This document shows, piece after piece, positions 37,182 through 50,382 of a stretch of 64,000 bases of DNA. The notes under the pieces are model-generated. The model did no database searches. It saw nothing but the letters and a program-made list of their open reading frames with translations, and was not told the origin of the DNA. How positions within the stretch are numbered: position 1 is the first letter of the stretch; each line of letters opens with the position of its first letter. The position numbers and the translations under genes were made by a program. The DNA lies in the NCBI GenBank assembly GCA_009914755.4, contig CP068257.2:14848001-14912000 (forward strand). Reading direction: 5' to 3'. Origin of the DNA: the human T2T-CHM13v2.0 reference genome, Homo sapiens.

Positions 37182-40100
37182 AAGGTGAACTTGTCTGTTT
37201 CTCTTTTCTGTTTCATACTCTACATATTGAGCAGCTTTGTTTTGGTGCATACACATTCAGGGATGCTATGTCTTCTTGCTGGATTGTTTCTTTTATCATT
37301 GTGTGATGTCTACCTGTGTCTCTGGTAATTTTCTGTCCTTGGAAGTCTATTTTATTTGATATTATTAAAGACACTTCTGTTTTCTAATGTTTGACTAATA
37401 TGCTTACTTTAATCATTTTACTTTCAACCTGTTTATATTGTTATATTTAAATTTTCATTGTAGACAGCATATAATTGGGCCATGGTTTTTAAATCCACTG
37501 TGCAAATCTCTGCCATTTCATTGGTATATTCAAACAATTCACATTTACTTCAATAATTTATTTATATGATTTAAGCCTGCCATTTGAATAGTTCTTTTTT
37601 GTTTGTTCTTTCTGTTTTTTATTTCTCTGAGTTTTTTCTCCTGCCTTTTTGTGGTTTACTTAAACAAATTTTAACATTTTTAGAATTTTGACATATCTAG
37701 AATTTTTTTTTACTAAATTTCGTTATGTAATTTTTTAGTGGCTGCTTTATGTATTATGTTACATATACATAACTTATCACAGTCTACTAGTATCCTCATT
37801 TTACCATTTCAAGCAGTTAAAAAATCTTACCTACTTTTGTACCTTCACTCTTACCCATTTATAATATAATTAATTGTCTTAGATATTTCCTCCACATGCG
37901 TTTAGCACTATACCAGACAGTGCTCTATTTATGTTTCCACAATCAAACATAATTTAGAAAACTCCAGAAAAGGAAAGTCTGTTCTATTTATCCATATTTG
38001 TATGTACTGAATTCTTTCTTCCTTTCTAAACTTCCAAGATTCCCTCTTTTGTCTTTTCCATTCTGTGTGGACAACTTCCTTAGCCATTCTGTCAGGTTAG
38101 GCCTGCTAGTTGAAAATTATTCTAGTTTTCTTTATCTAACAATGTTTTCCTTTCCCCTTCATTTCTAAAGGATATTTTCTATGGATATAAAACTCTAGGT
38201 TGATAGTTCTTTGCTTTCAGCAAGTGAAACGGTCATGTCCTTTCCTTTTGGCTCCCATGGTTTCTGATGGGAAACCCACTGTCTGAATCATTTTTCCTCT
38301 ATAGATAAGACTGTGTTTTTTCCTGCTCTTTTCAGATTTTTTCTTTAAGTTTTTGTAAGTTTGACTATGATATGCTTTGGTATAAATTTCTTTGGTTTTA
38401 TTCTGTTTGCGGTTTGCTCAGCTTCTTGAATCTGTGTCCTTTTTGCTATATTTTGGAAGTTTCCAGCCACTATAGCCACTATTTCTTTGAGGATATTTTA
38501 AGCATTGCCCTTTTTCTCCTCTCTTTCTGGGATTCTAGTGACACAGATACAAATGTTTTATTTTTTGTTATAGTTTCACAGTTGCCTAAGTCTCTGTTTT
38601 TAAGTATAGTTTATTTCTGTTGTTCAGATTAAGTTATTTCCATTATTCTTTCTTCCAGTTCACTGATTCTTTCTTCTGCCTTCTCCACTCTGCTGTCAAG
38701 TACATCCTCTTAGTTTTTGATAATTTCAATTATTTTATTTTTCTGTTCTAAAATTTTATCTGATTATTCTTTGTATCTTCTATTTCTTTGTCAAAACTTT
38801 TACCTTTTTCGTTTGTTTCCACTATGCTTATAATTGCCTCTTGGAGCATTTTCATGACAGCTGCTTTAAAATCTTTGTCAGATAATTCTAACATCTCTGT
38901 CATCTCAATGTTCACATGTATCAATAGCCTTGTAAAAATTCAGTTTGAGATCTTCTTTCTGTTTTGGGTGACAAATGATTTTCGGTTGAAACCTGGACAT
39001 CTTAGGTATTAGGTATGAGGTTCTAATTCTTATTTAAACCTTCTGTTTTATCTGGCTTCTTCTTACACCACGCCGGCCGGGAAAAGGGAGCATGCCGCCT
39101 TGTTACTGCCAGATATGGATAGAAGTAGCTCCTGCTCTTCAATGAACCTCCGTTGGTTTCTGCTACCAAACTGACCTCCACTGATATCTTCCTGGCAAGA
39201 AAAAATGGAGTAGTTTGTTGCTGCTCTTATTGTGGTCTTCACCAGTGCTTTAGAAGTTGAGGGATAGCATGGTAGCCTCATTACAGCTGGACAGTTTCAA
39301 ATGTTCTCAATCTCCACCAAACCTCCTCTCATACTACCTCAGTGGAGAGGGAGATGGATACCTCATTATTGTTGAGTTTGGGGTGGAAGTCTAGACTGCC
39401 CATTTAGTCAACATAGACACTGCATGTAGGGTAAGAGAAGAATCTTGCTAACCCCCGGCAGGGATGAAACTCCTAGATTCCTGCTCAGACTTCTTTTACA
39501 CTACTCTGGGTGCTGGAAGGAGAGGGTGTTGGAATACCCTGGCAAGGATCAGCGTCTGGGCTTGCCACTTTGCCTTTGCAGGTGTACATGGGGATGGGAC
39601 CATAATTCTTTTTGTGGTGTTCAACGAGAGCAAAATGATATTGCTTTCTGTCTTTCTAGGCTGCCCCTTTCTTGTTCCTTTGACTAGAGAGAACAGCCTT
39701 TCGTTGGAACTTGGTTTTTTTGTCTGAACCAGTTGGCATTTCTGGGTTGCAGGCTTCTTCAGCTCTGAGGTTTTGATGTATAAGGTAAAAATTTTAAATC
39801 CATGTCATTCCTTGAGTCCTTCAGTCTCTAGCTAGTTTTTCATCTTCTCTCAGCTTTTCAGAGTCTCTTTAAATTTCTTTGATATGTAATGTGGAGAGAT
39901 TTTAGTTGTACCTAGAAGGGGAATTAGAAAAAACTACGTCTACTCCATCTTTCTACAAGTGAAAGTCTCCCATTACTTTGCTTCTTTTTAAAAATTGTTT
40001 TTAATTGGGAAGACAGCATACAATTTTCACATCAGATTCTTTCAGGAAGTTCAACAGAATTATACAAAACTAACCATGAATTTAGTATTAAAAAGGAAAC

Positions 40101-40299
40101 CTTCAGACAGAGAAAACATCTCTAATTTATTTTTTAATATCCATTTTACTTCCACTTTGCAATTTCCATCGGTTTGTTTCTTGACAAGTTTGTCTCTTTT
40201 AGGACCTGCAACATCTCTGTTTAGTAGTGAGCTTTTCTCATTTAAAAGTACTTACTGAAAGACTCCCACATGGGAGTCACATCAGTTTCTTTCACTGAT

Positions 40300-40372
40300 G
40301 TTCTCCTATGCCTATCAGAAGGCCTGGCACATACTAGGACTTAATAAATAATCTGCTGAATAAGTGAATGAG
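40300..40372 (+). mobile_element. MIR SINE 3' fragment
   Basis: ctatcagaaggcctggcacatactaggacttaataaataatctgctgaataagtgaatga against the MIR 3' end ...GTGCCTGGCACATAGTAGGTGCTCAATAAATATTTGTTGAATGAATGAA. Confidence 0.5.
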
Positions 40373-42873
40373 AACTGGAAATTTAAATTTTTATGTCAAT
40401 GAATGTGTCATCTGCTTTCTTGTTTTGCTGAATCATGGGGCTTAAGTTTCTGCCAAGCACTCTTTAAATATGTGCTTAGGACACTAGCAGATTTGTCCAG
40501 AATTTTGCAATCTAGAAAAAAAGCAATTTTAATTTTAGCCCGTGTGTAAATTTTTAGTTTATGGTTTAGAATTGCATTATTTTGAATTACAAATGGGGAG
40601 GACGACATGATGGTTCTCACGTGTGTGTATGTGTGTGTACACATTCACTCCTATCGTTGCTAAAGAAAGTCACCTGAAGGACATGGCACAAAAACAACCA
40701 CAAACCATTTTTAGTTATGTTTCCTAGATGCCTGAATCATTTTTCAGATTTTTTTCTATTAGACAAGTCACAGTTTGATTATCTTTGAAAGTCATTGTTA
40801 TGTATTGTGCAGTGTATGTGTTTACACATGGAAAAGGGGCAACATTAATCCATCATTTGGGGAAGACACTGAATATAATGTTAAATTTTTTGCAAACAAT
40901 CATACTTTAGATAAAGATTCTCCAATTATTGCAACATTTTTAAAAAATAAAGTTAAAGGACATGGTTCTTTTTAGTGCCGCTCAGTATGTTTGGTTTCTG
41001 TACTAATAATGCTTGCTTTCCTGTTTGGCTTTAAATTCTGCTTAAGGAAATTGTGAAAAATTTAATTCACTCTACTTTTGTTAGAAAGTATAGAAATGTT
41101 CGTGCATGGGATTCATTGCCTGCTAGAATGGAAATTCATTGGGGAGGGGAACCATTTCATTTTACTACCTAAGAGCTGTTGACACAGTCCCTGCATCTTT
41201 CAAAGGCATCTTTCATGCCACGCGGGCAAACTGTAGCCAGCGAAGAAACAGAAAGAGCCCTTCTCACATATGTCAGTCTCAGAAAACTTGCATAGCAGCT
41301 GTGCTAGGTACCGATGAGGATTACTATAGACCCAGTTGCAGGGTTTTATGTGGATAAAGAGACAACTGGCTTTCTCAGGGGAGCACTTTGTTGGAGATTG
41401 CAGCAATAGTGCATCCCTGCTGTTGCTAGAAGACATTGTGACCATGTAGTACAAAATCAGTGCCAGATAAAATCAGAAAGTAACAAAAAGCAAGAAGAAA
41501 ACTCGGAGTTTTTTTAAATCTTAAAGTGAGAGACGAAAACAAATGTTCTGGGCTTGTTTCATTCACTTGTAAGGAAAAGGAGACAGATGAAGGGATGCCT
41601 TTAACTCAGAAAACTTGAAGGGCTTTCAGTCTTTTCATTTGAGAACCATTTGGGTGTGTTGAGAAAAAAAGTTGCCAGAGTAGGCATGTTCAGACCTTTA
41701 TTTGCTACATTTGGTAGGAAAGATTTTTTTTTTCCCCTCTTAACTACAAGAAGCCAGAGTTTTCTGTGCAAACGAAACAGGCGTTGCAAGAATCAGATTC
41801 ACTTTGGACGACTCTTCACATTCCAAGTCATCATTGCGTTAGGCAGCACAATTCCATCTCTGGTTGATGGGCAGAAAAAGTGGGCAGCTTGCCAGGTAGA
41901 CGTTTCCATGACTCCCAGCCCCCAAAGGTGATGCGTTTTTCAGCTAATTCAATGAAGAGTGGGCTGAACTTTGGGTCTAAACGAGACAATAGCTGCCTTC
42001 GCAGTATCAGCAGAATGGTTGATGGGAGTGCACTCTACATTTGGCAGAGAATCATGTGACCTTACGACTGAGATTTTGTGATGGTGCCAACGGAGACTTG
42101 GAAAGCAGCAACCGTCCTGACTTTTTTCTTCTTTTCTAACATGGCTCAGAAAATGGTGGATCTTAATACTTGACTTTAGCCAGACTCAGCAAGCGACTGA
42201 GCTTTGAAGCACAACTTCGCCTTTATTCTGGGTTTTTGGCAGGCCACCAGGAGGCTGTCCCTTTCACGCCTGATAAATTCTGCTGCTTATCTCTAAATAG
42301 AAAAAAAAAAAAAGGAAAATAATAATAGAATATTGAGGCATAACAAGTGAATTCTAAAATTGTATGTGCTTTTTGTTTTTTTTTTTTGTTTTTTTTTGCC
42401 TTTTCTGACTGGTGATTTGTATTTTTGTTTTATTTATTTATTTATTTTTTAGGTTACTACCTTTCTGCTTGTAGAAGAATCCAAGTAGTTGGGTCTTTTT
42501 TTTTTTGGTTTATAATGAACAGGCATTTGAACTGGGCAAACAGGACGACAGCAGCAGTGAGCATGAGATCATTGCATTGCAGCACTGTAGCAAACTGGCA
42601 CCCTGCCTTTGCACCCCTTTGGTTCAGGAGACAAACGTGTGTAATCCTCATTTCTAAAGTCAGCACAGCCTGGAAGGATTCCTGGTCTCTCCCACCTTCT
42701 ACCATTCTGCTGCCAGTGACGGCAAGGATTGGTGTAGCTTCTGCGCAGTGCTTTGTGCCTGGAATACCGAGAAGGAAGAAAAAGAAGACAAGCACCCTGG
42801 TCCTTTTCTAAGAAATTACAGGCGCCCTTGAAGAAAAAATCTGAGTGTGTCCTACTACATGCAAGAGTGCTGG

Positions 42874-42901
<28 letters not shown>
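42874..42901. repeat. Poly(A) 28-mer followed by an A-rich (CAAAA)-like tract up to about 42990
   Basis: gagtgctgg then 28 A, then gagacgctcctgctcaaaaacaaaaacaaaagcaaacaaacaaaaatccaaaccaaaacaaaccaaaaaaagc. Confidence 0.9.
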
Positions 42902-42904
<3 letters not shown>

Positions 42905-44811
42905 ACGCTCCTGCTCAAAAACAAAAACAAAAGCAAACAAACAAAAATCCAAACCAAAACAAACCAAAAAAAGCAAACATTGGCTGTATAACTACAGAGA
43001 CATCGGGCTTTGTAAATCAGCTTTTTAAGGCAACATAACCAAATGAGCCTTCTTTATTTTTATTATTTCAAACCATATGGCATAATTAGCAATATATTGC
43101 ACTTGGTGAAATCGCACCTTTCATATCAGGTATAACTTTTTTTGTTGTTTTTCTTTTAAAGGCTACTGTTATATAAAAGGGAATCCTTGAACTTTTAATT
43201 TACTTTTATTTAACTCATTGCCCACTTTACTCTTATTAACTTTTTCCTTTTCCTCTCTTGCTCTAATCTTGATTAAAATAGAAACTTAAGGAAAGATAGA
43301 AAAATCTCTATGAAAAAGACAATACATGTTTTTATGTGGGGTATACACAGAAGTTTTGGAAAGATATTAATATATCTGTGCTTTTTGTGTCCAGTATTAG
43401 TTTTTGCTATCTAAGAAAAGTGAATGTTTAGACCTAGTGGGTAAAAAAAGTAAATCTTTCATGTGACTTATAATTTGAAATGTGAAAGAAGAAACTTTTT
43501 AAACTTGTAGAAAAGGGTTATATTAGAATATGCGTTGAATGACTGATAAATAAGATTGCTTTTGGGGAAGTTATATTCAAATTATTTACAAAGATTTCAG
43601 TAGAACAAAAATAGGAATGAGAAGAGCATGTTCTCAGTTGCTAGGTAGAAAAGAAGCTTCTTTCATAATAATATGCTCTTTTAAAATACATTTTAAAAGA
43701 AGTACTTGTCCTAGAGCAGTTGCAAAAAGCATTGGAAATATCAAGTGTATTAGAAAAAGTACATGCAAACTTGTTTTAAGTTCAGAGCAATGTATTGGCT
43801 CAGCAGATAACTGCATTGCATTATAATTATTTTGTCTGTTTGTAGAAGTAAATTGCTAAGCAATTTAAGCATTTTATTAAAAAAACAGTTTTGCCTGGTT
43901 CAGTGTGAAAGGATTAGCAGATGCATTCCAGCTATTTTAGTTTTGATAAAAAATGTTTCTAAACAAGTGTAAAAATAATTTTTAAAAGAGAATGCTTTTG
44001 AAAAATTCAGCAAGTATCAATGAAAACTATAATTTGCATACTAAGAATTGACGTTATAATATTTCGGTAAAAATATACTTTGGTAATCTGTTATGCTTTT
44101 AAAATCATATTTTCTTATATTACAAATATGTAGGGTAAACAATGAAAAATGTAGAACTGATTAATTCTGCCTTTGTGTTTGCTATTCTATGAACAATTAC
44201 AGGAAATTGCAAAATCCCTATATACTGATAACATTCAAATAAAACGTTCTGTTGGTTATTGTTCACTAATTATTTACAAAATAGCTCTTGTACCTCCATG
44301 CTGCCTCAGCTAATGGTACACCAACTTTCACTGGCTTAATTAATATTGATAAACCTGTTTCCATGTTTCAAGATCCGTTTAAAAACATTATTTTAAATGT
44401 TATTTTTAGCAGCCATTAATCTCTACACTCTTAATTATCTTATTAAGCTCCATGCCAAATCCAAATCTCTTTTCAGCTTTCGCTACTTCATTGTGCAAAA
44501 CCTAGTCGCTTCTTTAACAGCCATCGTCCTTTCACTTTCAAAACTGTTACTGTGAAAACAACACGAACCAAAATGAACGCATAAATGCAAACTATGAAAC
44601 CACTTTATATGTCATATGAGTAGCCTGGGTGGGGCCCTGTGAGTCTTCCAAGGCTTTAAAAAAAAAATACTTTAAAAGGTTTTGCCCATTTTGATATCGT
44701 GTTTTCTTCTCGATCGTCTACCCTCATTCCCACGATCCACTCAGATGCTCCTCCTAGACAGCAGTTGTCTGATATTTCTCCTTTTGTGGTTGTTTTAGGG
44801 AAAAACTTAAA

Positions 44812-44859
44812 ATGGATATGAAAAGTGAAGAAAGTGATCATAGGAGAAAACCATTTCAG
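44812..44859 (+). CDS. Hypothetical short coding-exon segment (exon 44799..44859) with an in-frame ATG: M-D-M-K-S-E-E-S-D-H-R-R-K-P-F-Q. Gene not recognised
   Basis: Acceptor-like ctccttttgtggttgttttag|GG, then GGAAAAACTTAAA ATG GAT ATG AAA AGT GAA GAA AGT GAT CAT AGG AGA AAA CCA TTT CAG, then donor |gtaaaa. A local CpG cluster lies 40-320 bp upstream. There is no homology support. The segment is short and could arise by chance. Confidence 0.2.
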
Positions 44860-47789
44860 GTAAAAATAAAAAACAAAGAGCAAATAAGATTTACTGTTTT
44901 TAAAGAAAAACAACATTCTTTTGACTGTGTTTTGTTATAAGAATTAATTTCATATTCTTTATGAGTGTAACTGTTGAAATTTTATTGATGGTTTTCATTT
45001 GAAAATGTGTGCTATGACCTACCTTTGTGAAAAATTTCTTGTGGTCAATTGGGCAGTTTGTGTCCCATTGAATATATGTCTGTGTATCCATACGCTTAAG
45101 ATAGGTGCAATACGGTTTACTAGAAAGCTTTATAGGAAAAGAAAAAAATTATATTTTCTTATTTGTTGTACCATATAAAAGGAAGTGAAATCAGGAGGAG
45201 GGGAATAAGGTCATGCTTTTTCATCTTTTTTACATGACCTGATAAGACAATGAAACCAAAACATGCTTTCTTATAGTTATGGTAAAACTAAACCCAATGC
45301 TGCCTCTTATTTCACATTTGCATTTATAAATATATGTTGAAATATTTTTACTACAACTGAATGTATGATTGTTGATTATTTACTATAGTTTTTAATAATT
45401 ATGAGGACAATTTAAGAATAAATAATGGTTTAAAATTATGTAGAACACATGATCTATATAAAGGCTATAAAACGTATTTATTTCAAAATATGCAAAATCA
45501 CTAAGCAATTAGTATGTAGTATTATTTTACACAATAAAGATATAATTAGGAAATGCTAAGTGATTATAGATGTGAAATGATTAATGATTGTACAACTTAT
45601 CATTTTGTTGCAGTTGAGTTTACAATCTTAAAAAAACGTGTATGTGGCTGGCTTTATGTTTACTCGTTTGTGTGTTTGCTTGTTGTCTGGTGGTTTAAAA
45701 CATTTTTTAGTAATATTTTATTTTTGCCCAACCTGTTGACCAGATGAGAGTTGTATGTAGCCATGCATTTTAAGTGTATCTTTTTTGAACAATAAGTTTA
45801 AATATATTTTATTTAGGAAAGAAGATATCCTATGTCATGTAATACATCTGGAGTATAAATGTTAGTGTGGAGTATTAGTAATCATGCCATTATCGTGCCA
45901 TTTAGTTTAGTTTTATATTAACTCATCCAAATATTGTAAATTTTAGCACCATTCCGACTATAGACACAGATGTATATATTTAAGGCTGATAATAACTTCC
46001 TGTATTCTCTAGCTAGTGAACAAGATCTTACTGTTTTATGAGAAAGTTATAATGTTACCAATTCCTTGAAACCAGTAACTAAACTAGTTTTATAAAAATT
46101 AAAATAAGCACGGTCTAACTCATACACAATTAACTTAATAGTTAATTTGGTTTTAATTATAGGCTCGTAATACTACATTCATGCCTCACAATTATATAAT
46201 TCATACATGCATGTATGGATTCTTTTTTCTTTTAAAACTCAATTAGAATAGTTTAATTCCAAAATATTTACTATTGAAACAAAAGCAGTTCGTGAAAAAT
46301 TTTTCAATAAACTACTTTTTAAATTCTCATGCATATAAATTTGTATTTAGTTTTGAATATTTATGAAGGCCTTTAATGGAGAATATGCATCCTTAGAACT
46401 CAGCATTTAAAACATTTATACTAAAGGATCAATATTATTTTTGACTCTTAATTGCATCAGATATTTACAACAAATTCTATATTAATAGGGGGCCCATGCA
46501 AGATGTTGCCCATTGGCATAAACCCGTAGATCCGATCTTGTGGTGAAGTGGACCGCACAAGCTCGCTTCTATGGGTCTGTGTCAGTGTGGTAATCTGACA
46601 AAATGCTATACACAGTGCCGTTCAACAATAGTTCAGTAAAATCCTGTTAAACTCCAGTTGATTATATACTTTTGAAGTCATTATATTTTCCTTTGTTTTT
46701 AATGTTTATTTTAATCATTGTCTGTCTTACAAGGCAGGCTTCAATTCTCAACAACTTGGAAGCGTTTATATCACACCCATTCAAGTTCGATTCCATGTAC
46801 AGTAAATTGCATAAGAAAGTTGAACCTTTATAGCAGGGTTTGGACCAGGATCTGAATAGATTCTGTTCAGAAACTTCAGTGCATACTGTAGTGCTTAGTG
46901 TACCTCTTCAACTTCAGTAAGAAAATTAAAGACTACCATTGGATTTATATGTTTTTATTGAGCCTATTTCTCCTGAAAAAATGAGGCTGAATGCAATTGA
47001 CTTTTACTATTAATTGCGACTAGAACTATGGCAGGTTAGATGGTCAGAAGACATTTTACGTGACCTATGCTGGAAACCCAAGTGTTTAGGTTAGTCCTAT
47101 GAGAAACAGTTAGCAGCAAAGTTTACTGGTAAAATGTTAGAATATTATATCTATATCCTTGCCAAGCCCTTAGGTGTATGGCTGCCATATTTGGAGGAGC
47201 TGACTGAAGATATGATAAGGAGTTTGAAGCAACATTGGAAGCTGTGTGCATCCGGGTTGAGGTAGTAGGTTGTATGGTTTAGAGTTACACCCTGGGAGTT
47301 AACTGTACAACCTTCTAGCTTTCCTTGGAGCACACTTGAGCCGTCGAGGAATTCTTCATCACTTTAACCTGATTGAGCCAATTTGTGTGCAAGAAGGTAA
47401 TGTGTCATGAGTATCTTGGATCATTGATTTGGGCCTTTATTACATTAAAATGATCATTTCAGCCCTATTAGATTATTCCATTTGTATCTGCTTATGAACA
47501 ATGTCAAAATGGTATTTCTAATGGGTTGTCACTCCATGTTCAAACATTTTAAGAAAATTGTAGGTAGTGACTTAAATTGCATTAATATTAAAGCTTTTTA
47601 TCATCTATAGATTAACAAAATTCAGACCTTAATTTTCAAATGGATCATTGGTCTATTTATATTGGCTGCTTAGACACTATAATAAAAAATGTCTGCTAGA
47701 GTTAATAGCTCCCATAGCACATTATTTGCGTTTTCCTTATGACACATCACTTTCTACCTTATGTTATGGCTATTTATGTGCTTGCTGAT

Positions 47790-47910
47790 TTTTTCCGCAC
47801 TAGACTGTAAGCCCCTTGAGGGCAAAGTCCATGTTTTATTTTTCACTGTATCCCCTCCAATGCCTTACTCATAATGAGCACTAACTATTTATTGGATTAG
47901 TGAATGGAGT
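47790..47910 (+). mobile_element. MIR SINE 3' region
   Basis: cactagactgtaagccccttgagggcaaagtccatgttttatttttcactgtatcccctccaatgccttactcataatgagcactaactatttattggattagtgaatgga matches the MIR core/3' (...CTAGACTGTAAGCTCCTTGAGGGCAGGGACTGTGTC...TGTATCCCCAGCGCCTAGCACAGTGCCTGGCACATAGTAGGTGCTCAATAAATATTTGTTGAATGAATGAA). Confidence 0.65.
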
Positions 47911-49481
47911 GTAAGACCTCACTCTGTGATGAGTTTCTATTGAATATTTGAATGAGTTATGGCAGTGGTCAAACATCTGAGTTTTATTTATTGCTCCTAA
48001 AACTGTTTAAATTTAATTCCTGGACTGCTCCGCATCAGTAATACATGTGTCGATTTTTGACTGTGTTGAATGTGTTCATTCATTCTAAACAGATAAGTTA
48101 AAATTTAGAAGTACTTTTTATCTAGAATAAAAATAATAGAGTAAATTCATTTTTACTAATTAGTTCATGACAGTTTATGATCCTACACTTAGATAATTCA
48201 TATTTCTGTTGAATTTAAATACCTTTCTTTCCAGATGAATCGTTTTTCTTTTAGCATCAATTTCAACTAAATATTCTATTTTAAGTCTCATTTAACAATA
48301 TGATTTTTAAAAATTAGATTTGTGTCTTTTGTGTATTTCCCTCGTCTCCTGCCCTTTATTTTTGTACAGCTATATCTGTTGAATAAACCAGAAGCAACTA
48401 AACCAGAAACATGTCAATAAATTAATAATAAATATGTATATAAAGTATAATTTGAGAATGTGAACACATTTTTGTTTAAAGGAAAGGCACTTTATAATAT
48501 TCTTTGTGTTACAAAGCAAATGGGACTCTTTGGAACCTTAGTTTGCTGTCAACTTTAGCAGCTGTTAGTGGTGTAATTTGTGTAGTGAGGCTATCTTACA
48601 TAGATCATCTTTCAGACACAGGATTAAGTAGTTGTTGATGTTAGAACTTTAATTTAAGACTCCAAATATGAAACATGGAATTCATTAAAGAGACGTTTAG
48701 ATGCAAATATATATTAAGGACCTCAAGATACTGGCTATGTGGTGCTGACCTTTCTAGAATGCTCAGGCATCCAAAATATCTTAATACCTAGAACTTGCTA
48801 ACAATGTAGTGAAGAAGGAATGGCTACCCCCAACACGTAGAACATGTGAGCCTTAGAAAGTGAATACCAGTCACTTCAAGCAAAATAATTTGATTGGTCT
48901 ACAGTAGTAAAGACTCTTTCTCTCTGTGAAAGAAAAATATTTGCAAGGACTAATCAAGAAGCAATGAATAAGAGGCAGTAGACATAGACCTAAAACAAAC
49001 AAACAAAAAGACATGAAGAGATGAAAAGGAAAGTGACTCATAGCAAATAGGAACACCATTGTGTCTAATGATGGCAGTTCAACCCACGGATGAAAGAAAG
49101 GGACAACTAAATGGGTAAACAATTGTATCTTTATAAATAGTTTTTTCCTTGAGAGCCTAGGATCCCTTTCCTATGTGTTTCTATGTATGTATCTCCCAAT
49201 ACTAGGTGTATTTATTTAGAAGCCAAATCTATTGATGGGCCAAATAGAATATGATTGCCAATAAATGTCTATTTCCTTACAGTGTAATGGAGTTAAGTGC
49301 CTCACAGAGGTCAAGTAAGATGTGCAGTTTAAGGATAATCTTACAAAAGTACTATAATGAATTGTTAGAATTACAGCCTCTTTTATATACTATCACCTAA
49401 AGTGAATGAGTATAATAGAAGAATAATTGAAGAATGGTGAAGATGTCTCTATGATTCATTATGTTAGTTATGTAGAAATCA

Positions 49482-49970
<489 letters not shown>

Positions 49971-50382
49971 TTATAAATAAATGGCAAATGTCAGATATAG
50001 AAATTGATAGGATTTTTTGAGAAACCAAGATATAGGACCACTGCTGATGTCAGTAATTAAAAATAGTTAAATTATGTCTAAGAAATCAAAGCGAAAGATT
50101 GTTCATATAGAGGGCTTATGTTCAGCTATGGGGAAACAACTAACCAGACTGAATAATTTCCTTAAGAATTTTAAGTGGTCAAGTTTAACTGTAGACTGGG
50201 GTTTTCACATCTGGTAACAGAGTATGACAATTCAGGAAATTATTAAATATCAGTGAATCATACTTCGTTTAACCAATATTTCTTTTGATATTTTGGGGCA
50301 CAAAGTTGGATATGTCTTTATGTTCATACTGGTTGATTTACCTCAAATGCTTTGTGGGATGAGGCAGGAAGGAGTTTTAGAG

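What the first reader, a model, noticed from the sequence alone, without database searches (positions are those of the whole stretch)
41100..43050. Repeat-free, CpG-retaining ~1.9 kb block whose sub-segments end in poly(A): native UTR/lncRNA exon or processed retrocopies
In a window where CpG is almost absent outside Alus, this interval has about 23 CpGs and no recognisable interspersed repeat. It has two internal A tracts in a suggestive context. One is ...gataaattctgctgcttatctctaaatag followed by A13 at 42301-42314, a polyadenylation-signal-like hexamer ~25 nt upstream of an A run. The other is ...gcaagagtgctgg followed by A28 at 42874-42901, itself followed by an A-rich (CAAAA)n tail. Two readings are possible. 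(a) A conserved transcribed or regulatory region of the host gene (3'UTR, 5' exon or promoter-proximal), with CpG preserved by constraint or hypomethylation. (b) One or two 5'-truncated processed retrocopies of mRNA 3' ends, with CpG preserved because the insertion is recent. ORF 42425..42811(+) (128 aa) has no protein-like composition, and ORF 42569..42976(-) is a poly-F artefact of the A tract.
Basis: partly seen in the sequence, partly recalled or inferred. Interest (0 to 1): 0.5.

Follow-up and report, generated by a model that had tools for sequence, protein, structure and literature searches.

The report
Ancient conserved element upstream of let-7c
This ~2 kb stretch is not a retrocopy: it is an old, strongly conserved non-coding block about 4 kb upstream of the miR-99a/let-7c microRNA genes in the human MIR99AHG host gene, most likely part of their intronic promoter/enhancer region, which earlier Pol II mapping had already flagged.

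Summary
Window 41100-43050 has 29 CpGs, the highest count of any Alu-free window of that size. It contains no Alu or MIR, and it carries A13 (42301-42313) and A28 (42874-42901).

The window is human MIR99AHG (LINC00478/C21orf34). miR-99a lies at 46514-46585, let-7c at 47252-47327, and a 60-nt host exon at 44800-44859. The block lies in the intron 3.5-5.4 kb upstream of miR-99a.

Orthologous DNA shows strong purifying selection. Human-titi identity is 96.3% in the block against about 90% in the flanks (p=2.5e-22). A 556-bp core (41745-42300) is 94% identical to two distant, non-primate vertebrates, in which otherwise almost only the miRNA hairpins and their near flanks align. Both A tracts have orthologous A-rich tracts in those species. 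There are no target-site duplications and no canonical poly(A) signal. The retrocopy reading is therefore refuted, and the CpGs are retained through constraint.

The core is non-coding: stop codons in every frame, no codon periodicity, and no RNA-structure signal. A published Pol II ChIP-chip peak and predicted TSS window for miR-99a~let-7c cover the block.

Best reading: a conserved cis-regulatory module (intronic promoter/enhancer). A role as transcribed RNA is not excluded.

This is an ordinary kind of element that is already visible in the literature.

The parts
41097..41744 (.). Left shoulder of the conserved block. Constraint at primate level starts sharply near 41100. Similarity to the distant vertebrates is weaker, from about 41284. 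The shoulder ends in a T10/C-rich pyrimidine tract (41724-41741) that abuts the core.
   Evidence: Human-titi mismatches fall from 4-11 per 50 bp left of 41100 to 0-6 inside. Human versus the distant species is 62-75% over 41284-41744. The 500-bp predicted TSS window of Corcoran 2009 maps to about 41055-41555.
41745..42300 (.). Core conserved non-coding element of 556 bp.
   Evidence: 514 of 556 columns are invariant in human, titi and the two distant vertebrates. Identities: human-titi 99.3%, human-distant 93.9-94.1%, distant-distant 97.7% against 77-84% beside the core. There are 6-9 stops in every frame, and substitutions fall 9/12/11 over the three codon phases. MFE z-scores are +0.58 and -0.56. 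RNAalifold gives 0 of 153 compensatory pairs.
42301..42313 (.). A13 tract at the right edge of the core. It is an old homopurine tract, not a retrocopy tail.
   Evidence: Orthologous A/G-rich tracts sit at the same place: AAAAAAGAAAGAAAGAAAATA in L002 and (GAAA)n in L004; in titi the run is shortened to A7.
42314..42500 (.). Fast-evolving, low-complexity spacer rich in T: T runs at 42370-42397, (TTTA)n at 42429-42451, T run at about 42489-42499.
   Evidence: TRF. Human-titi identity is only 90.5% with 21 gap positions, and 42400-42499 has 16 mismatches per 100 bp.
42501..42873 (.). Second conserved sub-block.
   Evidence: Human-titi 97.9%. Human-L002 79.4%, with indels that are not multiples of 3 and shift the long minus-strand ORFs between frames.
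42874..42977 (.). A28 tract, the conserved motif GAGACGCTCCTGCT, and a (CAAAA)n array.
   Evidence: L002 has A10-GTGACTCTCCTGCTTCC-A16 at the orthologous place, and titi has a shorter A run. TRF. No canonical poly(A) signal lies within 40 nt upstream.
43092..43140 (.). Small conserved island (..GCACCTTTCATATCAG|GTATAAC..). It might be a weak 5' splice site on the + strand or a protein-binding site.
   Evidence: 85.7% identity to L002 over 49 bp, while the sequence on both sides is at random level, 46-49%.
44800..44859 (+). Context: a 60-nt MIR99AHG exon with AG/GT splice sites. It places the block in the intron upstream of this exon.
   Evidence: The published primer NR_136544-45-R matches 44833-44859 exactly. 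Sequence. The exon is only weakly conserved in L002.
46514..46585 (+). Context: miR-99a hairpin, a presumed target of the regulatory block.
   Evidence: Rfam mir-10 family, 77.4 bits. The mature sequence aacccgtagatccgatcttgtg is present.
47252..47327 (+). Context: let-7c hairpin.
   Evidence: Rfam let-7, 67.6 bits. The mature sequence tgaggtagtaggttgtatggtt is present.

Best explanation
The block is a cluster of conserved non-coding elements inside an intron of the lncRNA host gene MIR99AHG, 3.5-5.4 kb upstream of the miR-99a and let-7c hairpins on the same strand. Its centre is a 556-bp core, nearly invariant from primates to two distant vertebrates.

I think it most likely acts as DNA. It would be a cis-regulatory module (the intronic promoter region and/or a proximal enhancer) that binds transcription factors and recruits RNA polymerase II. 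This would drive or time transcription of the pri-miR-99a/let-7c (and possibly miR-125b-2) transcript independently of the distant host-gene promoters.

The CpGs survive because the bases are under purifying selection. The A- and T-rich tracts are old homopolymer tracts that bracket the conserved modules; by inference they may act as nucleosome-excluding boundaries. They are not poly(A) tails.

Shown here: locus identity, constraint, depth of conservation, non-coding nature, and orthology of the A tracts.
Taken from the literature: Pol II occupancy, and the existence of an intronic let-7c promoter.
Inferred: that this block is that promoter/enhancer, and that it acts as DNA.
For: Locus:
- miR-99a and let-7c lie 738 bp apart.
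- An exact 27-nt match to a published MIR99AHG primer defines the exon at 44800-44859.

Constraint:
- Human-titi identity is 96.3% in the block against 89.4-90.2% in the flanks, Fisher p=2.5e-22.

Depth of conservation:
- In L002, a 71.7-kb vertebrate contig that carries miR-99a and let-7c 4.5 kb downstream, essentially only the block and the two hairpins with their near flanks align to human.
- 514 of 556 core columns are invariant in four species.

Non-coding, with no RNA-structure signal.

Literature:
- Corcoran 2009 (PMC2668758, Table 3) reports a significant Pol II ChIP-chip region at hg18 chr21:16826951-16832700. It also gives a CpG-poor predicted TSS window starting at 16827826 for miR-99a~let-7c.
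- Anchored on the paper's own miRNA coordinate, these map to window ~40180-45929 and ~41055-41555.

General knowledge: uniform near-identity over hundreds of bp, without coding periodicity, is the usual signature of developmental enhancers/HCNEs.
Against: - No direct TSS, chromatin or reporter data at this resolution could be read. The Pol II region is 5.7 kb wide, and Pol II also accumulates at 3' ends.
- The CPPP prediction may itself use conservation.
- The exact coordinates of Pelosi's promoter were not available.
- The only TATA-like motif (about 43163) is not conserved.
- There is no CpG island in human or in the distant species.
- Promoters are rarely 94% conserved over 556 bp, which fits an enhancer or an RNA element better than a core promoter.
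- Splice-like signals (a conserved TAG|AAATG near 41096 in primates, TTTTTTAG|G at 42451, CAG|GTATAA at 43129) leave an exon reading open.
Confidence: 0.5

Rival explanations
1. The block acts as RNA. It would be an alternative or terminal exon of MIR99AHG, or the 5' leader of the intronically initiated pri-miRNA, and its conserved core would be a functional RNA domain (protein or miRNA binding, or control of pri-miRNA processing). This is partly compatible with the best explanation.
For: - The block lies on the sense side, upstream of the miRNAs, inside a Pol II-occupied region.
- Primate-level constraint starts within a few bases of a conserved TAG|AAATG acceptor-like site at about 41096.
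- An acceptor-like site (CTGAC branch point, long pyrimidine tract, AG at 42451) precedes sub-block 2, and a conserved CAG|GTATAA lies at 43129.
- GATAAA is a known weak poly(A)-signal variant, and it is conserved in all four species.
Against: - No transcript evidence could be obtained. The Logan/ENA contigs that cover the core are colinear genomic pieces that break at homopolymers and at a repeat.
- The published MIR99AHG primers map only to the exon at 44800.
- MFE z-scores are near 0 on both strands, there are no compensatory pairs, and there is no Rfam match.
- By a rough position-weight estimate the candidate donor is weak.
- GATAAA is equally well read as one of two paired GATA motifs (TGATAA..TTATCT).
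- lncRNA exons are very rarely 94% conserved at this evolutionary depth (general knowledge).
Confidence: 0.3
2. One or two 5'-truncated processed retrocopies of mRNA 3' ends, with CpG retained because the insertion is recent.
For: Two A runs lie on the same strand at the ends of unique segments, and a poly(A)-signal-like GATAAA lies 23 nt before A13.
Against: - The whole block and both A-rich tracts are present at the orthologous site in titi monkey and in two distant vertebrates.
- The block is under strong purifying selection rather than drifting.
- There are no target-site duplications.
- No AATAAA/ATTAAA lies before A28.
- An extremely ancient retroposition cannot be excluded formally, but it would not explain the constraint.
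Confidence: 0.02
3. Neutral unique intronic DNA whose CpG excess is a chance fluctuation.
For: CpG o/e is only 0.35 and GC 41%. 12% of Alu-free windows reach that o/e.
Against: - The substitution rate is three-fold lower than in the flanks (p=2.5e-22).
- Identity to distant vertebrates is 94%.
- The CpG count is the highest of 606 Alu-free windows.
Confidence: 0.01
4. A protein-coding or micropeptide exon.
For: Several ORFs of 90-135 aa lie on both strands. A titi gene model uses 42625-42765(-) as an exon.
Against: - Every frame of the core has 6-9 stops in both human and L002, and substitutions show no codon periodicity.
- The long ORFs of sub-block 2 change frame between human and L002.
- The titi model is a chain of Alu-derived 'GVQW' exons.
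- Two protein searches of 5.8 billion sequences found nothing else.
Confidence: 0.02
5. An exapted ancient interspersed repeat of the kind catalogued as a conserved repeat family, which RepeatMasker would label. This concerns origin and does not conflict with a regulatory function.
For: None directly. Homopolymer tracts at the ends of modules are reminiscent of retroposon tails.
Against: - The block is single-copy in the 64-kb window and in 70 kb of orthologous sequence.
- There is no Alu or MIR similarity.
- A 24-mer from the core has no match in the viral or prokaryotic genome collections, which is uninformative for vertebrates.
Confidence: 0.1

Closest known systems
Highly conserved non-coding elements (HCNEs/CNEs; the 'conserved non-genic sequences' described on chromosome 21 by Dermitzakis et al. 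2002; related to, but looser than, the ultraconserved elements of Bejerano et al. 2004). Cited from memory.
   Same: - Hundreds of bp of uniform near-identity between distant vertebrates.
- No coding periodicity.
- Single-copy and in a syntenic position next to a developmental regulator, here the let-7/miR-99/miR-125 cluster.
   Different: - The longest exact human-to-distant-species run is 58 bp, so it does not meet the criterion of 200 bp or more at 100% identity against that species. The mouse/rat comparison that defines ultraconserved elements could not be made.
- Enhancer activity is untested.
Intronic promoters of intragenic miRNAs (Corcoran 2009, PMC2668758; Pelosi 2014, Mol Cancer Res, 'dual promoter usage' for let-7c; Ozsolak 2008 and Monteys 2010, cited from memory).
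   Same: - Lies inside the host-gene intron, a few kb upstream of the hairpins.
- Falls inside the published Pol II ChIP-chip region, with a CpG-poor predicted TSS window in its left part.
   Different: - No mapped TSS or core-promoter motif could be verified here.
- The degree and length of conservation exceed what core promoters usually show.
Processed pseudogenes / retrocopies
   Same: A runs at the 3' side of unique segments.
   Different: - No target-site duplications and no canonical poly(A) signal before A28.
- Present at the orthologous site in distant species.
- Under purifying selection.
Temporal regulatory element upstream of C. elegans let-7 (Johnson et al. 2003). From memory, a lead only.
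   Same: A discrete upstream DNA element proposed to control when let-7 is transcribed.
   Different: No sequence relationship is claimed or tested. The organism and the locus architecture differ.

Membership tests
Processed retrocopy | Target-site duplications flank the insert and its poly(A) tail | tested here: not met
   The repeat finder on 40000-44000 gives no direct repeat with that geometry. The only exact 11-mers are TAAATTCTGCT, whose second copy lies before A13 rather than after it, and a low-complexity A-rich word.
Processed retrocopy | Canonical poly(A) signal 10-30 nt upstream of the A tail | tested here: not met
   No AATAAA/ATTAAA lies before A28. Only the weak variant GATAAA lies before A13.
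Processed retrocopy | Lineage-specific insertion that is absent from the orthologous site of outgroups and evolves neutrally | tested here: not met
   Present in titi and in two distant vertebrates at the syntenic position. Identity is 96.3% against about 90% in the flanks.
Processed retrocopy | A spliced parent gene elsewhere in the genome | not testable with these tools
   No human genome or transcriptome was available.
Conserved non-coding element (HCNE) | High identity (70-90% or more) over at least 100-200 bp between distantly related vertebrates, at a syntenic position | tested here: met
   94% over 556 bp, located 4.1-4.5 kb upstream of miR-99a in both human and L002. The taxon of the distant species was not verified.
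Conserved non-coding element (HCNE) | Not protein-coding | tested here: met
   Stops in all six frames, no codon periodicity, and frame shifts between species.
Ultraconserved element (Bejerano definition) | At least 200 bp at 100% identity between human, mouse and rat | not testable with these tools
   No rodent sequence was available. The longest exact run against L002 is 58 bp. From memory, no such elements were reported on chromosome 21.
CpG island | GC at least 50% and CpG o/e at least 0.6 over at least 200 bp | tested here: not met
   GC 41% and o/e 0.35. No 300-bp window qualifies in the orthologous sequences either.
Pol II promoter of a pri-miRNA | Pol II occupancy upstream of the hairpins | tested here: inconclusive
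   The published ChIP-chip region maps to window ~40180-45929. It is 5.7 kb wide and was measured in a single study.
Pol II promoter of a pri-miRNA | Mapped TSS (CAGE/RACE) with promoter chromatin marks | not testable with these tools
   The TSS positions of Emmrich 2014 and the promoter of Pelosi 2014 are given only in figures or in a paper that is not held.
lncRNA exon / UTR | Bounded by splice sites or a poly(A) site, and supported by cDNA | tested here: inconclusive
   Splice-like motifs exist, but there is no cDNA evidence. The primers of PMC9926633 map only to 44800-44859.
Structured RNA family (Rfam) | Match to a covariance model, or thermodynamic/covariation support | tested here: not met
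   No match near any gathering score. MFE z-scores are +0.58 and -0.56. 0 of 153 pairs are compensatory, though with little variation the test has low power.
Interspersed repeat (Alu/MIR and others) | Similarity to a repeat consensus, or multiple copies | tested here: inconclusive
Single-copy in all sequence held. No Dfam library was available.

The most novel reading that the evidence does not exclude
The 556-bp core is a dedicated control element of the heterochronic miR-99/let-7/miR-125 cluster, conserved across amniotes and possibly all vertebrates. It would work in one of two ways: as an enhancer that sets the developmental timing of let-7c transcription (a vertebrate counterpart, in function only, of the nematode let-7 temporal regulatory element), or as an RNA domain in the primary transcript that gates its processing. 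Its near-invariance would then mean a dense, overlapping code that could be dissected directly.
Probability: 0.2. Interest if true: 0.6.

Novelty: already known. Interest (0 to 1): 0.3.

Why it matters
[quoted passage not shown] How they are transcribed independently of their 700-kb host gene is only partly understood. Pinning the intronic control region to a 556-bp near-invariant core gives a precise target for deletion and reporter experiments. For the scan itself, the useful results are negative and methodological. The block is not a retrocopy. Its CpG retention is explained by constraint. Genome-encoded A runs next to unique sequence are not evidence of retroposition.

Tried and rejected
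1. Retrocopy reading: rejected. There are no target-site duplications, the A tracts are orthologous, and the block is under constraint.

2. LacRNA / last exon of NR_136544 (PMC9926633): none of its primers map in the block. Only the exon at 44800 is hit.

3. TATA-like motif at about 43163 as a core promoter: not conserved in titi or L002.

4. CpG island in the distant species upstream of their block: there are GC-rich patches, but o/e is 0.26-0.5, so no island.

5. Coding potential: rejected. The only named protein hit, 'GVQW1' of titi monkey, is a gene model built from Alu exons.

6. Structured RNA: no Rfam match, no z-score signal and no covariation.

7. Logan/ENA contigs as possible transcripts: they are colinear with the genome and end at homopolymers and at a repeat, so they say nothing about transcription.

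8. Scans of genome contigs and viral contigs with a 24-mer from the core: no hits.

9. Taxon of L002 and L003-L009: not settled. A repeat fragment at the end of L003-L005 resembles, from memory, a common avian repeat, but it is absent from L002.

10. Papers sought for exact TSS coordinates: Pelosi 2014, Ozsolak 2008 and Monteys 2010 are not held. Chang 2015 does not mention the locus.

11. One literature search was too broad and gave nothing useful.
Full report
OBSERVATION.
The interval 41100-43050 was read directly.
- It contains 29 CpGs, not about 23. That is 14.9/kb, with GC 41% and CpG o/e 0.35.
- The block has the highest CpG count of all 606 Alu-free windows of the same length (median 11). 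Its o/e is 0.35 against a median of 0.20.
- It is not a CpG island.
- A13 is at 42301-42313, with GATAAA 23 nt upstream. A28 is at 42874-42901, followed by a (CAAAA)n-like array at 42916-42977.
- No Alu or MIR similarity lies in the block, and it is single-copy in all the sequence I hold.

WHERE WE ARE.
- Rfam finds a mir-10-family hairpin at 46514-46585 and a let-7 hairpin at 47252-47327, both on the + strand.
- The mature sequences are those of miR-99a-5p and let-7c-5p (the sequence identities are from my knowledge of miRBase).
- A 27-nt qPCR primer for MIR99AHG isoforms NR_136544/45 (PMC9926633, supplementary Table S2) matches 44833-44859 exactly. It lies in a 60-nt exon, 44800-44859, with AG/GT splice sites.
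- The window is therefore human (or a very close ape) MIR99AHG, also called LINC00478 or C21orf34, on chromosome 21.
- The block lies in the intron upstream of that exon, 3.5-5.4 kb upstream of miR-99a on the same strand.
- The literature places let-7c in intron 6 of LINC00478 (PMC7164295).

ORTHOLOGOUS SEQUENCES.
There is no vertebrate genome among the tools, so I used pseudo-peptides translated from the block as handles.
1. A protein search returned one spurious gene model from the titi monkey Plecturocebus cupreus. Its locus, L001, is the 48-kb orthologous region.
2. A degenerate-pattern scan of metagenome contigs returned a 71.7-kb contig, Ga0065711_1026429 (L002). It carries miR-99a and let-7c 733 bp apart and 4.5 kb downstream of the match. 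It is therefore vertebrate host DNA and the true ortholog.
3. A second protein search gave a Logan ORF. Its cluster led to seven contigs from six sequencing runs and one ENA metagenome assembly (L003-L009).
   - These contigs are about 99% identical to each other, so they come from one species, 'A'.
   - They are 81% identical to L002 ('B') outside the conserved parts.
   - They are colinear genomic pieces that end at homopolymers and at a repeat, so they carry no information about transcription.
4. The taxa of A and B are not verified. Against human, almost only the block, the two hairpins and their near flanks align, which suggests non-mammalian amniotes or something deeper. A repeat fragment at the end of L003-L005 resembles, from memory, a common avian repeat.

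CONSTRAINT.
Human versus titi:
- The block is 96.3% identical (70 mismatches in 1917 aligned bases). The flanks are 89.4% (37500-41099) and 90.2% (47330-50000). Fisher p=2.5e-22.
- Constraint begins sharply near 41100.
- 41750-42299 has only 4 mismatches, which makes it as conserved as the miRNA hairpins.
- The low-complexity stretch 42301-42500 is not conserved (90.5%, with many indels).
Four-way alignment:
- The core, 41745-42300, has 514 of 556 columns invariant.
- Identities: human-titi 99.3%, human-A 93.9%, human-B 94.1%, and A-B 97.7% against 77-84% beside the core.
- Sub-block 42501-42873 is 97.9% identical to titi and 79.4% to L002.
- A 49-bp island at 43092-43140 is 85.7% identical to L002, amid sequence at random level.
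CpG retention: 26 of the 29 CpGs are retained in titi and 14 of 29 in L002. The CpG excess is explained by purifying selection.

THE A TRACTS.
- At the position of A13, species B has AAAAAAGAAAGAAAGAAAATA and species A has a (GAAA)n tract. In titi the run is shortened to A7.
- At A28, species B has A10-GTGACTCTCCTGCTTCC-A16, against human A28-GAGACGCTCCTGCTC-(CAAAA)n.
- Both tracts are therefore ancient, orthologous and variable in length.
- No target-site duplications flank them, and no AATAAA/ATTAAA precedes A28.
- The conserved GATAAA before A13 is equally well read as one of two facing GATA motifs (TGATAA at 42271, TTATCT at about 42287).
- The core is bracketed by a pyrimidine tract on its left (41724-41741) and the purine tract on its right in all four species.
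The reading as a recent retrocopy is refuted.

NOT CODING, AND NO SIGN OF STRUCTURED RNA.
- Every frame of the core has 6-9 stops in human and in L002. The 32 human-L002 substitutions fall 9/12/11 over the three codon phases.
- In sub-block 2 the long minus-strand ORFs of human and L002 switch frames because of 3- and 4-nt indels.
- The titi 'GVQW1' model is a chain of Alu exons.
- Folding the core gives z=+0.58 on the + strand and z=-0.56 on the - strand.
- RNAalifold finds no compensatory pair among 153 predicted pairs. With so little variation this test has low power.
- No Rfam model comes near its threshold.

WHAT IT MOST LIKELY DOES.
Published evidence:
- Corcoran et al. 2009 (PMC2668758, Table 3) did Pol II ChIP-chip around miRNA genes. 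For miR-99a~let-7c (listed at hg18 chr21:16833279) they list a significant intragenic Pol II region, 16826951-16832700. They also list a CpG-poor predicted TSS window starting at 16827826.
- Anchoring the paper's miRNA coordinate on the hairpin start at window 46509, these become window ~40180-45929 and ~41055-41555. The Pol II region covers the whole block, and the predicted TSS window is the block's left shoulder.
- Pelosi et al. 2014 is not held. [quoted passage not shown] The intronic promoter is functional in prostate and lung adenocarcinoma cells.
- Emmrich et al. 2014 confirmed three TSSs for the cluster by 5'RACE, but their positions are given only in a figure.
Conclusion: combining these reports with the conservation signature (long, uniform, non-coding, position kept relative to the miRNAs), I consider a cis-regulatory module the best explanation. 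It would be the intronic promoter region and/or a proximal enhancer of the pri-miR-99a/let-7c unit (confidence about 0.5).
Weak points:
- The Pol II region is broad.
- The TSS prediction may itself use conservation.
- There is no conserved core-promoter motif. The TATA-like site at about 43163 is not conserved.
- Neither human nor the distant species has a CpG island.

MAIN RIVAL.
The block, or part of it, could be transcribed and act as RNA, as an alternative or terminal exon or as the leader of the intronic pri-miRNA.
For it:
- An acceptor-like TAG|AAATG lies at about 41096, where primate constraint begins.
- A good acceptor-like site lies at 42451, in front of sub-block 2.
- A conserved but weak CAG|GTATAA lies at 43129.
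Against it:
- No cDNA evidence could be obtained.
- There is no structural signal.
I give this reading about 0.3. It is partly compatible with the regulatory reading.

COMPARISON WITH WHAT IS KNOWN, AND NOVELTY.
- The element meets the working definition of a highly conserved non-coding element. It fails every testable criterion of a processed retrocopy and of a CpG island.
- Membership of the 'ultraconserved element' class cannot be tested without rodent sequence. The longest exact run against L002 is 58 bp.
- The region is already in the literature as a Pol II-bound putative intronic promoter, and its conservation would be obvious in any genome browser. I therefore rate it as already known in kind and, largely, in instance.
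- What is not in the papers I could read is the sharp definition of a 556-bp near-invariant core and the demonstration that the flanking A tracts are ancient.
- Interest is modest (0.3).
- The most novel reading not excluded is that the core is a dedicated, amniote-wide timing element, acting as DNA or RNA, for the let-7c cluster (probability about 0.2).

Noticed in passing
window 44300-44799: The 500 bp immediately upstream of the 60-nt MIR99AHG exon is 97.2% identical between human and titi, against flanks of about 90%. CpG o/e is about 0.5, yet the stretch does not align to the distant vertebrate L002. It is a second constrained element, at primate or mammal level, of unknown role.
   Followed up: partly
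window 47181-47626: Conservation around let-7c extends about 300 bp beyond the hairpin on its 3' side: 74% over 451 columns against L002. The miR-99a/let-7c spacer is otherwise unalignable.
   Followed up: no
window 42369-42397 and 42874-42901: A T-rich run and the A28 run form a 29-nt, 93% complementary inverted pair that brackets the second conserved sub-block, about 475 nt apart. T-rich and A-rich tracts occur at the corresponding places in L002. In a transcript they could pair. The meaning is unknown.
   Followed up: partly
window 41724-41741 and 42301-42313: In all four species the 556-bp core is bracketed by a homopyrimidine tract on the left and a homopurine tract on the right. The composition of these tracts is conserved, but not their length or exact sequence.
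   Followed up: partly
L001 10001-38140 (titi monkey CM080821.1); window 42625-42765 (-): The annotated 'Protein GVQW1 [Plecturocebus cupreus]' (388 aa) is a gene model made almost entirely of Alu-derived exons on the strand opposite to MIR99AHG. One of its exons is taken from the conserved block. It is an annotation artefact in a public genome.
   Followed up: yes
L002 (contig Ga0065711_1026429, 71.7 kb); L003-L009: Long vertebrate host contigs sit inside public metagenome and Logan assemblies. One species appears in six runs and one ENA assembly at about 99% identity. The taxa were not determined.
   Followed up: partly
window ~39100-39300 and ~39990: There are structural differences between human and titi just upstream of the block. 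About 125 bp present in human is missing in titi at 39100-39299. A 302-bp insertion, Alu-like by its BLAST hits, is present in titi near 39990.
   Followed up: no
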